Assembly: GCA_951406725.2 (NCBI GenBank)
Contig: OX597831.1
Location: forward strand, 83,886,001-83,950,000
DNA length: 64,000 nucleotides
Origin: Octopus vulgaris
Taxonomy: Eukaryota
Direction of reading: 5' to 3'
Under the pieces are notes generated by a model, which was given only the letters and a program-made list of their open reading frames with translations, had not been told where the DNA came from and did no database searches. A program made the translations under genes and the position numbers. Of the stretch, positions 9,130 through 64,000 are shown one piece after another. The first letter of the stretch is position 1. The number at the start of each line of letters is the position of its first letter.

Positions 9130-10226
9130 TCAACAATTGAGGGTAAAATTAATTAAATAATCAATTTCACCAAGTGTTCAGTATGTAAAAGGACCATTTA
9201 AGGCGAATTCAAAATATTACATTATATAATTAGGGCTTAGTAAAATAAATTACTTTGCCACATACTGAACTTAGTAGAAATAGCAGCCAAAAAAAATTTT
9301 CTTAGCATTTCTACTACTTAAAGAAAATTTCTCTCAGATAATGTTTACTCTAGACAGCTCACGAAGGTTTGGGGGTAAATACAGAAAAATATCACAAGTA
9401 CATAGATCGTTTGAGTACGTCAACGTTTCAAGATTAGCCAAATAAATCAGCATTTCTTTCGTCAGCTCAAAATTTCTTAATTTGGATTTGGAAACACTAA
9501 AAGAAGGAACTTTACCTATCAGCGAACTTGTCGCTTCAGATGAACCACTCCAACTAAACAGTGTCAACAAATTCAAAATGCGCAGGCGTAAAATTCTGCA
9601 CTCCCCATTCCACCCACGTGGTCTATCTAGCAAACATTATATTTTAACCGCGAGAACCGAGGCAGTATGACCGAGAGAAATGAATTATAATATCAACAAT
9701 TGAGGGTAAAATTAATTAAATAATCAATTTCACCAAGTGTTCAGTATGTAAAAGGACCATTTAAGGCGAATTCAAAATATTACATTATATAATTAGGGCT
9801 TAGTAAAATAAATTACTTTGCCACATACTGAACTTAGTAGAAATAGCAGCCAAAAAAATTTTCTTAGCATTTCTACTACTTAAAGAAAATTTCTCTCAGA
9901 TAATGTTTACTCTAGACAGCTCACGAAGGTTTGGGGGTAAATACAGAAAAATATCACAAGTACATAGATCGTTTGAGTACGTCAACGTTTCAAGATTAGC
10001 CAAATAAATCAGCATTTCTTTCGTCAGCTCAAAATTTCTCGGTTCTCGCGGTTAAAATATAATGTTTGCTAGATAGACCACGTGGGTGGAATGGGGAGTG
10101 CAGAATTTTACGCCTGCGCATTTTGAATTTGTTGACACTGTTTAGTTGGAGTGGTTCATCTGAAGCGACAAGTTCGCTGATAGGTAAAGTTCCTTCTTTT
10201 TAGTGTTTCCAAATCCAAATTAAGAA
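9130..10226 (-). mobile_element. Retrozyme-like element: ~563-bp unit x1.6 plus inverted segment (10038-10226), 3' end in (TA)n
   Basis: Direct repeat starting 9131 and 9694; 10038-10226 is the reverse complement of ~9474-9661; one HHR per unit. Confidence 0.85.
9410..9471 (-). ncRNA. Type I hammerhead ribozyme (second copy 9972-10033)
   Basis: tttgag CTGACGA aaga..tctt GAA ACGT tg ACGT A ctcaaa: 6-bp stem I, canonical core, stem II, stem III, GUA site. Confidence 0.85.
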
Positions 10227-10254
10227 AGAGTGTGGTTGTTACTTTCTGTTGCTT

Positions 10255-10556
10255 CCTTTCAGCACGTAAAAAAAAAACGTGGCCGTTTTCAGCGCCACCT
10301 TGACTGGCTTCTGTGCCGGTGGCACGTAAAAAGCACCATCCGATCGTTGCCGCTGCCAGCCCCCCTGGTACCTGTGCCGGCGGCACAAAAAAGCACCCAC
10401 TACACTCAGAGTGGTTGGCGTTAGGAAGGTCATCCACCTGTAGAAACACTGCCAGATCAGACTGTAGCCTGGTGCAGCCTCCTGGCTTCCCAGACCCCGG
10501 TCAAACTGTCCAACCCGTGCTAGCATGGAAAACGGACGTTAAACGATGATGATGAT
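10255..10556 (+). mobile_element. SINE/RTE-related non-autonomous element 3' part with (GAT)n tail
   Basis: Internal TGCCGG(T/C)GGCAC..AAAAAGCACC repeats, GGCGTTAGGAAGG.CATCCA motif, tail GGACGTTAAACGATGATGATGAT. Confidence 0.6.
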
Positions 10557-60141: not shown

Positions 60142-63100
60142 ATATTGATAAAGGTTTTATCATCATCCCAAGATCGTGGTTTCGATTCTCGAACCGAGCG
60201 ATGTATTGCTTTCTTGAACAAATCATTTCATTTCATTCTACCTCAGTTCACTCGGCTGTTAACGAATAATCCTGCGACGCGAGGGAATGGAATCCCGTTC
60301 AGAAGAGTTTGTTTTGATCTCGCTGTGGGAACCAGATAACCGGCCCTGTGTATCCTCGGGCTCGAGATAATTATGTCTAGGTGTTGTTGTTGTTGTTGTT
60401 TATGATGATGATGATGATGACGACGACGACGACGACGATGATGATGATGATGATGACGATGACGACGACGACGACGACGACGATGATGATATAGTAAGTT
60501 GGCTTTAATATCATGGGTTTGTTCGAAGACATAATACGTATTGGGCTCATGATCGTGAAATGATGGACTCCATTTTTGGACTGGGCGGCGCACTGTGTCC
60601 GTTCTTGAATAAGATACTTTATTTTGCATTGCTGTAATTGATTCAATTGAAAAGGAGCAGCAGAGTTTAGTTGGAACTATGCGAAGAACTGGTGTCCGAT
60701 TTAGAGAAGCGCTACTCTTATATTCGGCGAGCTGGCAGAAACGTTAGTACGCCGGGCGAAATGTGTAGCCATATTTCGTCTGCCGTTACGTTCTGAGTTC
60801 AAATTCCGCCGAGGTCGATTTTACCTTTCATCCTTTCGTGGTCGATAAATTAAGTACCAGTTATGCACTGGAGTCGATCTAATCGACTTAATCCCTTCGT
60901 CTGTCCTTGTTTGTCCCCTCTGTGTTTAGCCCCTTGTGGCTAGTAAAGAAATAGGCATGTAAATTTTGGAGAATCCTTGATTCTTCTGATTATCTCCTCT
61001 TCTCATTTGGAGTTTAGTCACAATTGCCACCAATTCTTTCCTCTATCCTCGAAAGAGGAGATAATTTCAGTAAATCAAAATTCTTTAATGCACATTAATT
61101 CATCTCTCTCTCTCTCTCTCTTTCTCTCTCTTCCTGTCTTTTCTCACACATACGCGCACGCACGCCCGCACACACACACACACACACACACACACACACA
61201 CACACACACACACACACACACACAAAGATAGATGGCAAAGATAGATGATTAACAAATACGTAGACAAACACATGGACAGACTAATGGACATACAGATAGA
61301 CAGGCAGATGGATGGATGGATGGATGGATGGATGGATAGATAGATAGATAGATAGATAGATAGATAGATAGATAGATAGATAGATAGATAGATAGATAGA
61401 TAGATAGATAGATAGATAGATAGAAAGAAAGATGGATAGATCTGTTATAATTTCACAACACCGAAGATGCCCTACAGGAAGAAATTCACTTCTGTACTTG
61501 GGAATTATTTTATTTTATCGACGCCTGAAAGTTTAAATGCATTGTTGATCCCTGTTTGATTTTGGCACAGAACGTAGAAGGCCACAACTAAACGCAACAG
61601 CCACCCGCCTCCGGGACTGTGTGCATGAGTGCTTCTTCGCATGTGTGTGTGTATTATATCTTTCCATCCTCGGACCCAGAACCCCTTATGGGGCCATCGT
61701 CAAAAACTGAGTTCCTTATGTATTTAGAGCACATCCTTCTTCCGTCTGTGAGCACAATCGAATTCTTCAAAGATAGTGAAAGGAAAAAAAGAATCGACTC
61801 CGATGTGATGAAAACAAAGTTGACTTCAGCAGGATTCGAACTCAGTGTGCTGGTAGCCAATACGGATATTGCAAAGGAATTTGTTTTACGTTCTAATGAC
61901 TTTGATTGCTACCTGCCTTATGGAAAGTGTGTGTGTGTATGTGTGTGAGTGTGTGTGTATGTGTGTGAGTGTGTGTGTATGTGTGTGAGTGTATTTATAC
62001 ATATATGCACATGTATGTATGTATGTATGTATGTATGTACGAATGTATGTGTATGCAAATATGTAGGTGTATGCCTATTTCTTTATTACCCACAAGGGGC
62101 TAAACACAGAGGGGACAAACAAGGACAGACATAGGTATTAAGTCGATTACATCGACCCCAGTGCGTAACTGGTACTTAATTTATCGACCCCGAAAGGATG
62201 AAAGGCAAAGTCGACCTCGGCGGAATTTGAACTCAGAACGTAACGGCAGTCGAAATACGGCTACGCATTTCGCCCGACGTGCTTAACGATTCTACCTGCT
62301 CGACGCATTCTAGATGTGAATAATATTAAAATTGAAGAAGAATGTAGAAGGGAACCGTAGAGAACTATGCAAATCAGGCAGAATACAAAGCGAAAATGCA
62401 ATCAGCTGCTATAAAATCGAAACCAATATCCAATCTGCAATATATAAAATATCAATAAACACATTTAAATTCTTTTACTACATGTGCCGATAAAAATCAA
62501 TAAACCCGTTAAACATAAAACTGCACCCAGATCATTAAATTTTCTTCATTTATATCGATTTTCATACACAAAGTACTTCGGAAAATTAAACATTTAGAAT
62601 TTTGTTTTATTTGATGGAGTAGGGGAGTTTATTTTTCTCTTTTGGCGTAGTTTAGATATTAATAACTTATTCATGCTTGAATTTCTATCTGCAGATATGG
62701 CGAGTTCACCAAGTACACGATAAAACTGTGTGTAAATAATATATTATGCATATAAATGTATGCATGCATGCATACTCAAATACATATGTGCTTAAATTTT
62801 TGCATACACATACACACATACATACATATGTACATACATACGTACGTACATGTATGCATGCGTACATAGATACATACTCACGTATGTACGTACATACATA
62901 TATACATACATATATTATACATATATATATATATATATATATATATATATATATATATATATATATATATATATATATATATATATATATATATATATAT
63001 ATATATATATGCAATGAAGAATAGGAACTTATGGGTATAGATTTCATAATCACAGATCCATGATTAGTTTCCTACACAGAATAAATATATGGCCAACGAT

Positions 63101-63424
63101 GTGTGTGTATGTGTATACATAAATACATATATACGTATGTATTCTCCTGCCTGTTCTTTGCCACTCTCTTCTTCGTTCTTACTCGCTCTGCCTTCCATAC
63201 AAACAGAGAAACACATTCTTCACACACACGCATTCACTCAAAAACAAACACAAATGTGTTGCAGTGGATGGTAGTGCGTGTTCAATACACGCGCGTGCAT
63301 ACACATTCATGTGTGTGTTTGAAAGCGTGTGTGTGCCTGTGTGTTTGTCTCTATGTATGTATGAATGTACATACATGCATGTATGCATATATATGCGTAT
63401 ATATATATATATATATATATATAT

Positions 63425-64000
63425 AGCAATAATAATTCTCTAAAAGAGATATAGACAGTAACTGCTCGATAACATAAGGGACTAAAGCCATCTGAATATG
63501 GCTAGGGACAGGGCAGGGTGGTGGGGGTGTTACTGTTGCATTTAGCCCCAGGCGAACATCGACGTCACCAGAAAGGCCCGACACCGTCACGGTGTCCTTA
63601 ACCTGCAAAGGGAGGTAATTCCCCGATGAAGCGGAAACCACACACGGACCATGGTTTCAAGGTGTATTGCCTATCGTCGGCGTGTGGTAGGCTTCCGCTT
63701 CCTCGACGAATTCTCACTCTGCAGGATATTCATATATAGATTTTCAAGCAAAATACATTTGCTGATTTCGAAAATCTGTTCGAAAGCAATAATAATTCTC
63801 TAAAAGAGATATAGACAGTAACTGCTCGATAACATAAGGGACTAAAGCCATCTGAATATGGCTAGGGACAGGGCAGGGTGGTGGGGGTGTTACTGTTGCA
63901 TTTAGCCCCAGGCGAACATCGACGTCACCAGAAAGGCCCGACACCGTCACGGTGTCCTTAACCTGCAAAGGGAGGTAATTCCCCGATGAAGCGGAAACCA
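63425..64000 (-). mobile_element. Retrozyme-like 360-bp tandem repeat running off the window, 3' end in (TA)n
   Basis: Units start 63425 and 63785 and are identical over the overlap; many GC hairpins; HHR at 63641-63686. Confidence 0.85.
63641..63686 (-). ncRNA. Type I hammerhead, U4C core variant
   Basis: cacacg CCGACGA t-AGG..CCT-t GAA ACCATGGT C cgtgtg. Confidence 0.75.

What the first reader, a model, noticed from the sequence alone, without database searches (positions are those of the whole stretch)
9130..64000. A Penelope-driven community of ~15 hammerhead-bearing non-coding elements colonising (TA)n
Seen: HHR or HHR-like motifs in sequence-unrelated families at 9410, 11584, 16827, 17056/53263, 23945, 24430, 26496, 27940/45249, 33035/49280/52575, 37661 (x7), 41651, 41920/56694, 46845, 48124 and 63641. 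Most end in (TA)n and show no clear TSD. Many have an inverted 5' segment, like the RT/GIY-YIG element at 41799-44353. Most have a tiny palindromic stem III (ACGT, ACATGT, ACTAGT, AATATT, ACAATTGT, ACACGTGT, ACCATGGT). Established: PLE pLTRs carry minimal type I HHRs thought to act as dimers, and animal non-LTR retrozymes are HHR tandem repeats producing circular RNAs. Inference: a very dense and diverse retrozyme/PLE parasite system mobilised in trans by PLE RTs.
Basis: partly seen in the sequence, partly recalled or inferred. Interest (0 to 1): 0.85.

Follow-up and report, generated by a model that had tools for sequence, protein, structure and literature searches.

The report
Penelope ribozyme community with unusual hammerheads
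This stretch of an animal genome is crowded with Penelope-like jumping genes and short non-coding repeats that likely borrow their enzymes, most carrying a predicted self-cutting hammerhead RNA; the system is of a known kind, but it includes a natural swap of a catalytic-core base pair and a re-wired hammerhead that I could not find in print and whose cutting is untested.

Summary
Observation largely confirmed: 21 type-I hammerhead motifs versus 0-2 in shuffles. Fixed-position samples give roughly 50 per Mb, about 150,000 genome-wide (extrapolated); this window is about fivefold denser. The ~15 families are not all non-coding. Seven are, or probably are, 3' ends of coding Penelope-like elements (PLEs); six are self-contained 330-850-bp units with PLE scars (partial tandems, inverted second arm, fixed 'tail'); two are unresolved. 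(TA)n targeting holds except for one SINE-like family. The overall picture is in print (Cervera 2014, 2020; Craig 2021; Li 2026). Less expected: a G3:C8 core swap fixed in a young coding PLE (19 of 20 loci), and a re-wired hammerhead at 11584 and 45249 whose stems covary. The scan found the re-wired form and two-armed retrozymes before on other DNA of this genome. Rfam did not match the three motifs tested. No expression or cleavage data. Verdict: new variant of a known kind.

The parts
9131..10227 (-). Family A: 563-bp non-coding unit, 1.6 copies plus inverted 190-bp front; type-I hammerheads at 9410-9471 and 9972-10033
   Evidence: absent from the paralogous site
11384..12251 (-). Family B: ~846-bp non-coding tandem unit; re-wired hammerhead candidate at 11590-11669
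16690..16985 (-). Family C: truncated 3' end of a coding PLE with Hydra-type endonuclease; hammerhead 16827-16912
   Evidence: endonuclease 0.9 kb upstream in L078, one locus
16985..17185 (+). Family D: probable 3' end of a Neptune/Nematis-type PLE; hammerhead with A6 replaced, 17056-17091
   Evidence: endonuclease 0.6 kb upstream in L268, one locus
23905..24200 (-). Family E: hammerhead 23945-24036; parent unresolved
24227..24620 (+). F: 170-bp palindrome plus weak hammerhead-like motif at 24430; not confirmed
26060..26622 (+). Family G: ~330-bp SINE-like head + (AAT)n + hammerhead (26496-26541), with inverted arm; ~30-nt tail; not TA-targeted
27737..28088 (+). Family I: truncated copy of a 700-750-bp non-coding tandem unit; decayed re-wired hammerhead
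28260..33160 (+). Family H: 5'-truncated coding PLE (RT, CX4CX2C linker, GIY-YIG; frameshifted), 3-kb UTR, hammerhead-like motif at 33035; inserted in clean (TA)n
37480..41502 (-). Family J: 7.07 x 549-bp non-coding unit plus inverted 144 bp; hammerhead with U3:A8 core in every full unit (first at 37661-37722)
41554..41775 (-). Family K: two-armed 3' end of a coding Hydra-type PLE; hammerhead with U4C at 41651-41713
   Evidence: RT+EN ORFs in L377-L379
41800..44354 (-). Family L: 5'-truncated coding PLE (RT YVDD, GIY-YIG) with inverted 130-bp arm; hammerhead-like motif with A9C at 41920-41959
   Evidence: no Pfam hit
44690..45488 (+). Family I relative; intact re-wired hammerhead candidate at 45325-45397 (left edge of the element approximate)
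45770..47578 (+). Helitron-like composite (TC...CTAG in an A^T site; hallmarks recalled) that carries the M copy as a passenger
46766..47083 (.). Family M: two-armed copy; complete hammerhead with G3:C8 core on the minus strand at 46845-46895
48045..48280 (+). Family N: old copy, hammerhead 48124-48203; probable 3' end of a decayed Hydra-type PLE
   Evidence: decayed endonuclease ~0.95 kb upstream in L190, one locus
49187..49487 (-). Truncated 3' end of family H (93% to 32864-33160)
52500..52708 (+). H-related short copy; hammerhead with U4C at 52575-52609 (left edge approximate)
53170..53377 (-). Second family D copy; hammerhead 53263-53299
56631..56853 (+). Truncated 3' end of family L (94%)
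63426..64000 (-). Family O: very young 360-bp non-coding unit, 1.6 copies plus inverted arm just beyond the window; hammerhead with U4C at 63641-63686; arrays of 11+ units elsewhere

Best explanation
The window holds a mixed community of coding Penelope-like retroelements, their truncated 3' ends, and six families of short non-coding repeat units that are likely copied in trans by the same Penelope enzymes, most with a predicted hammerhead ribozyme near the 3' end. Shown: two kinds of coding parent (Hydra-type endonuclease behind C, K, N; CX2-5CxxC-linker type behind D, H, L, M); head-to-tail non-coding units (A, B, G, I, J, O); both groups end at two fixed points (main end, and an inverted arm that stops 30-130 nt from it) and, except G, in (TA)n. 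Inferred: the PLE endonuclease nicks both strands of (TA)n, the RT starts at two internal sites of the RNA, and head-to-head arms result; the non-coding units keep only the terminal module the RT recognises. Also inferred, less firmly: hammerhead cleavage (as dimers where stem III is a short palindrome) cuts multimeric transcripts to unit length, these are ligated to circles, and longer-than-unit copying of circles, with occasional switching between templates, builds the arrays.
For: Descriptor excess over shuffles. A: in 27 loci outside the window the sequence before unit position 1 is another unit or an inverted arm; 16 of 27 have an inverted arm ending at 471-487 of 563 and 3 more end their main arm there. 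O: ends at 317 and 360, 99-100% identical copies on many contigs, arrays of 11+ units. B, I, J loop back into their own 3' end. The same two-end scar in coding-parent families C and K. (TA)4 within 6 nt of non-tandem 3' ends: A 22 of 23, O 10 of 10, C 19 of 28, against 3.6% of background positions; (TA)5 within 250 nt downstream of unbiased hammerhead hits 24 of 35, upstream 13 of 35, background 15%. Circular folds of O, J, A have z -4.9, -4.9, -5.9 against 30 shuffles each. Three units of L070 share 7 variants against the window copy. Two-site internal priming and tails are shown biochemically for an anole PLE (PMC11167929).
Against: No parent matched to any non-coding unit. No RNA or cleavage data. 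Array L210 and the window's J array are mosaics of haplotypes, which one circle alone cannot give. 5' ends of A copies are scattered and do not pile up at the predicted cut after unit position 278 (read; no formal test). Links for C, D and N rest on one locus each. Rfam misses the motifs. In print, PLE hammerheads cut poorly, were dispensable for insertion in vitro, and 8 of 9 frog dimers did not cut. Core changes U4C, A6N and A9C are expected to slow cleavage (one search covers U4C and A6C).
Confidence: 0.75

Rival explanations
1. All families are 5'-truncated 3' ends of ordinary coding PLEs.
For: True or probable for C, D, H, K, L, M, N.
Against: A, B, I, J, O loop into their own 3' end with no ORF; G starts with a SINE-like head in 13 of 25 loci. 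Loci were the best-scoring 40 candidates per search, so rare coding parents could be missed.
Confidence: 0.05
2. Units are copied by PLE enzymes from linear multimeric transcripts of existing arrays, and arrays grow by local unequal crossing-over; circles play no part.
For: Mosaic haplotypes in L210 and J; no 5' pile-up at the cut site; Li et al. propose local amplification; unprocessed RNA was the main substrate in vitro.
Against: Arrays occur in both arms of young two-armed insertions, with fixed ends; the haplotype that fills L211 on one contig also appears inside L210 on another; units fold unusually well as circles.
Confidence: 0.3
3. The hammerhead motifs are mostly inactive passengers of the PLE terminal module, kept for protein binding or by hitch-hiking.
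For: Many core deviations; low activity in print; pass rates in older families only 7 of 20 (N) to 22 of 48 (G).
Against: Position 3 and 8 change together (C-G, U-A, G-C): 9 swapped rows against 1 unpaired row among 41 in the fixed-position sample, from about 4-5 families; palindromic stems III of different sequence in each family; re-wired form keeps all core bases.
Confidence: 0.2
4. The local density is an effect of passive copying (Helitron capture, segmental duplication) and of position near a contig end.
For: The M copy at 46766 sits in a composite whose flank is shared by 28 of 28 other loci shown; a ~93-96% paralog exists on C16; the window ends 53 kb from the end of C18.
Against: A, B, H and the J/K/L block are absent from the paralog, so they inserted afterwards; fixed-position samples across 18 contigs already hold about 50 motifs per Mb.
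Confidence: 0.1

Closest known systems
Metazoan non-LTR retrozymes (Cervera and de la Pena 2020, PMC7229834; Li, Clavereau and Pollet 2026, 10.64898/2026.07.22.740005)
   Same: Non-coding tandem units with a type-I hammerhead in each, GC<50%, well-folded predicted circles, co-occurring PLEs.
   Different: Units 330-850 bp (170-400 nt in Cervera; 51-972 bp in Li); minimal or palindromic PLE-type hammerheads with core variants; two-armed insertions with tails in (TA)n instead of long TSDs; circles not shown.
EN+ Penelope-like elements, Hydra and Neptune/Nematis types (Craig et al. 2021, PMC8557442; Cervera and de la Pena 2014, PMC4209133)
   Same: RT + C-terminal GIY-YIG, partial tandems, inverted truncated arm, tail, (TA)n bias, masses of heterogeneous solo hammerheads, U3-A8 variant, extra base between 9 and 10.1.
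   Different: G3:C8 core fixed in a young coding family; tails up to about 130 nt; extrapolated count about 150,000 in 2.8 Gb (axolotl 126,247 in 28 Gb).
Type-SGC hammerhead (Eckert et al. 2023, PMC10085705)
   Same: Order cleavage site, then GAAA, then CUGANGA; pseudoknotted stems I and III; short linker from stem I to stem II.
   Different: The 5' strand of stem II lies upstream of the cleavage-site block, so the chain would be open between A9 and 10.1, which that paper assumes cannot happen; found in animal retroelement-derived repeats; untested.
Schistosoma SINE-like repeats with promoter + hammerhead (as summarised in PMC6765202, passage read)
   Same: Family G has a Pol III-like head followed by a hammerhead.
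   Different: G shows PLE scars (inverted arm, ~30-nt tail) and an internal (AAT)n; its head is not a clean tRNA.

Membership tests
Type-I hammerhead ribozyme | Core CUGANGA...GAAA...UH with stems I-III in type-I order | tested here: met
   12 of 15 families pass in at least one window copy; variants U3:A8, G3:C8, U4C, A6N, A9C
Type-I hammerhead ribozyme | Match to an Rfam hammerhead model | tested here: not met
   3 of 3 stretches without a match at E<=10
Type-I hammerhead ribozyme | Site-specific self-cleavage | not testable with these tools
   needs in vitro assay
EN+ Penelope-like element (C, D, H, K, L, M, N) | RT plus C-terminal GIY-YIG upstream of the hammerhead on the same strand | tested here: met
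   H, L in window; K L377-L379; M 19 of 20 loci; C, D, N endonuclease only, one locus each
EN+ Penelope-like element | Partial tandem, inverted arm, tail | tested here: met
Hydra clade (parents of C, K, N) | CxCX5C linker; CxxC and CxH beside conserved E and N; no CCHH | tested here: met
   K ORFs show all; N fragment shows the linker; C fragment shows CxxC/CxH read by eye; criteria; no tree built
Neptune or Nematis clade (parents of D, H, L, M) | CX2-5CxxC linker and CCHH; clade placement by RT tree | tested here: inconclusive
   linker seen in H, L, M; no reference sequences, no tree
Non-LTR retrozyme (A, J, O) | Non-coding tandem units, complete type-I hammerhead in at least two consecutive units | tested here: met
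   A 56 of 56, J 20 of 20, O 40 of 40 copies pass (overlapping loci not fully removed); arrays
Non-LTR retrozyme (A, J, O) | Expressed as unit-length linear and circular RNA | not tested
   no sequencing runs were obtained
Non-LTR retrozyme | Long target-site duplications when present | tested here: inconclusive
   empty paralogous sites are (TA)n, where a TSD cannot be read; A site shows loss of ~33 bp
Non-LTR retrozyme (B, I) | Type-I hammerhead | tested here: not met
   re-wired order instead
Type-SGC hammerhead (B, I) | Block order S-G-C with stems I and III | tested here: met
   covarying stems I and III in about 10 sequence variants
Type-SGC hammerhead (B, I) | Stem II strand directly after CUGANGA | tested here: not met
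   upstream strand 44 WC pairs vs 31.3+-2.8 (0 of 1000); downstream 24 vs 20.9+-1.8 (95 of 1000); L105 is an exception
tRNA-derived SINE (G) | tRNA-like head with A and B boxes | tested here: inconclusive
   box-like motifs by eye; ARAGORN at relaxed threshold overlaps the head in at most 2 of 25 loci; no Rfam tRNA hit

The most novel reading that the evidence does not exclude
PLE-dependent RNAs in this genome have explored hammerhead designs not described in nature: a working G3:C8 core in an active coding element, and a core opened between A9 and stem II, held by an extra outer helix, in high-copy non-coding parasites that replicate through circles. One animal genome would then hold about 150,000 ribozyme copies in dozens of families with matched coding helpers, a natural mutational scan of the hammerhead.
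Probability: 0.5. Interest if true: 0.82.

Novelty: new variant of a known kind. Interest (0 to 1): 0.6.

Why it matters
Who mobilises animal retrozymes and what PLE hammerheads do are open questions. Here very young non-coding units and young coding PLEs share the same insertion scars in one genome, so helper-parasite pairs and the circle step can be tested directly. The G3:C8 swap, known to me only as a laboratory rescue mutant, and the re-wired form would widen the definition of the hammerhead and imply that standard searches undercount animal ribozymes.

Tried and rejected
Rfam scans: only microsatellite-driven miRNA hits, no hammerhead. Pfam: no family for the 42511-44316 ORF or the H endonuclease frame, weak RVT_1 for the H RT. 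The first genome search for M returned only passengers of one Helitron-like composite and said nothing about M's own mobility; a second search from L114 resolved it. Reading B and I as decayed type-I or type-II hammerheads was dropped after the S-G-C scan; plain type SGC is not favoured. My first labelling of the C/K/N parents as Penelope/Poseidon was dropped for Hydra-type. Parent of E: an endonuclease hit 3.5 kb upstream in L372 is separated by unrelated repeats and was not accepted. F: no second copy. No TSD could be read. No blastn link between non-coding units and coding 3' ends. No expression evidence was obtained. No protein homologue search or tree was completed. Lunse et al. 2017 was not held and may list core variants, including G3:C8.
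Full report
Setting. The window is G000:C18:83886001-83950000 of a 2.8-Gb animal genome; that it looks like a cephalopod is my recollection from the repeat make-up and was not tested.

Are the motifs real? A type-I descriptor of my own gave 21 hits at score>=8 in the window and 0-2 in each of 8 local dinucleotide shuffles. Twelve families pass in at least one copy; B, I and F do not. 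In 60 fixed-position 10-kb stretches from 18 contigs it gave 41 rows, 39 distinct, against 4, 4, 8, 9, 9 in five shuffles: about 32 per 600 kb in excess, about 150,000 when scaled to the genome (rough; counting error alone allows 90,000-210,000). The window has 21 against about 4 expected, from 14 insertions. Rfam did not recognise the three motifs scanned singly, a result against the reading that I attribute, untested, to its models being built on canonical hammerheads.

Parents. H and L are coding PLEs in the window itself; 49187-49487 and 56631-56853 are their truncated ends. K lies behind RT+GIY-YIG ORFs in three loci. C, D and N each lie 0.6-0.95 kb behind an endonuclease fragment in one locus. 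M's sister subfamily lies about 1 kb behind the endonuclease of a very young coding family: 34 places matched the 411-bp query with an identical top score, 19 of 20 loci carry the hammerhead, and L319 keeps an open RT-EN frame. The K, N and C parents show Hydra-clade motifs as listed by Craig et al.; H, L and M have a CX2-5CxxC linker. No tree was built. In contrast A (563 bp), J (549), O (360), B (843-854 in 7 loci) and I (699-752 in 4 loci) run head-to-tail into their own 3' end with no ORF, and G begins with a SINE-like head in 13 of 25 loci. Each search scored only its best 40 candidates (first-look candidates: A 1750, J 1003, O 950, B 3085, I 2901, G 3093), so these are biased to close copies. 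E and F are unresolved.

Insertion scars. A: 16 of 27 outside loci have an inverted arm that ends at unit 471-487, while the main arm ends at 563. O ends at 317 and 360; G at 140-147 and 174 (8 of 11 inverted body pieces listed); C at 196 and 296; K near 100-107 and 167. This is the PLE tail, which Frangieh et al. trace to two internal RT start sites. (TA)4 follows within 6 nt in 22 of 23 non-tandem A ends (20 tandem junctions set aside), 10 of 10 O ends (4 set aside), 19 of 28 C ends, against 3.6% of background positions; the B and E rows of that test were mis-anchored and are not used. All 24 K loci end in (TA)n within about 10 nt by eye. G is the exception: 0 of 24 and 0 of 4. A paralog on C16 shows plain (TA)n where H inserted and lacks A, B and the J/K/L block. 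The M copy at 46766 is a passenger: 28 of 28 other loci shown share its downstream flank and 27 its upstream flank (one locus not shown).

Circles. O, J and A fold as circles with z -4.9, -4.9 and -5.9. Three units in L070 share seven variants, as repeated copying of one molecule or local duplication would give; L210 and the J array are mosaics, which needs template switching, multimeric templates or later exchange. The genomic data do not decide this, and no RNA data were obtained.

Core variants. J has U3:A8 (20 of 20 copies), a known natural swap. M has G3:C8 in all 25 passing copies of 64 (the rest did not pass the descriptor; many are right arms that lack the core), with a 7-bp stem I and two different stem-II loops. 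C3G/G8C is described as a partial rescue in vitro; I found no natural case in paper searches, but Lunse et al. 2017 was not held and I read no supplements.

Re-wired hammerheads. Earlier scan notes (unchecked AI notes) pointed me to non-circular permutations. A scan for the order cleavage site, GAAA, CUGANGA found 11584 and 45249 in the window (2 full-core hits; 0 in 10 shuffles) and 2 in the 600 kb (1, 0, 0, 0 in 4 shuffles). About ten variants among all loci show different but paired stems I and III. Stem II, which was not selected on, pairs better with a strand upstream of the cleavage site (44 Watson-Crick pairs over 10 variants; null 31.3+-2.8, 0 of 1000) than downstream of CUGANGA (24; 20.9+-1.8, 95 of 1000); an outer helix is weakly supported (24 of 1000). 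The variants are partly related, so these counts are not probabilities, and two of ten (L192, L105) do not fit. This differs from type SGC of Eckert et al.; searches found no such form in animals. I did not test the notes' link to Naiad or HERO elements.

Comparison. Masses of heterogeneous solo hammerheads tied to truncated PLEs, palindromic stems III and dimer cleavage are in Cervera and de la Pena 2014; retrozymes with PLEs as likely helpers in Cervera and de la Pena 2020; their PLE origin in Li et al. 2026; tails, inverted arms and (TA)n bias in Craig et al. 2021. Searches gave no paper on hammerheads in cephalopod repeats. The community is thus a known kind at unusual scale; the G3:C8 core, the re-wired form and the SINE-like G family are the additions.

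What I read. 10.64898/2026.07.22.740005: parts 1-3 of 5, abstract to discussion, supplements not seen. PMC8557442: 12 passages and section 11. PMC11167929: parts 1-2 of 4. PMC7229834: abstract and parts 2-4 of 6. PMC4209133: parts 1-2 of 4. PMC10085705: part 1 of 8 and 12 passages. PMC3088659: 3 passages and section 8. PMC6765202: 10 passages. Helitron end motifs and Pol III box motifs are recalled.

Verdict. Observation partly confirmed, interpretation partly supported; new variant of a known kind; interest 0.6.

Noticed in passing
window 45770-47578; related pieces 33695-35836, 27189-27707: Young high-copy Helitron-like composite that has captured SINE pieces, a two-armed M copy and a K tail; 40 of 40 scored candidates matched at 100%.
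   Followed up: partly
G000:C16:2044640-2105000 (L201-L207): Segmental paralog of the window, mostly 88-99% identical, giving empty sites for several insertions.
   Followed up: partly
window 4004-8660, minus strand: Two tandem copies of an RT + zinc-finger + endonuclease non-LTR element in (TTA)n; no hammerhead of either wiring passed the scans in its 3' UTR.
   Followed up: partly
window 57250-59255, minus strand: RT fragment (RVT_1 E 2e-31) absent from the paralog.
   Followed up: no
window 26877-27171 and 24227-24396: Near-perfect 295-bp and 170-bp palindromes beside (TA)n; probably fold-back insertions; the first is absent from the paralog.
   Followed up: no
window 14391-14565 and 33177-33295: Short (TA)n-flanked repeat without a detected hammerhead; recurs next to other loci.
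   Followed up: no
L103, L104, L105, L111, L116, L133-L135, L147, L151, L152, L158: At least a dozen further hammerhead families not present in the window, including three with U3:A8 cores.
   Followed up: no
L105:729 minus: S-G-C motif whose best stem II is contiguous with CUGANGA, a possible true type-SGC hammerhead in an animal (one copy, 5'-truncated).
   Followed up: no
window end / C18: The window ends 53 kb from the end of contig C18 (84,003,317), which may explain its high repeat density.
   Followed up: no
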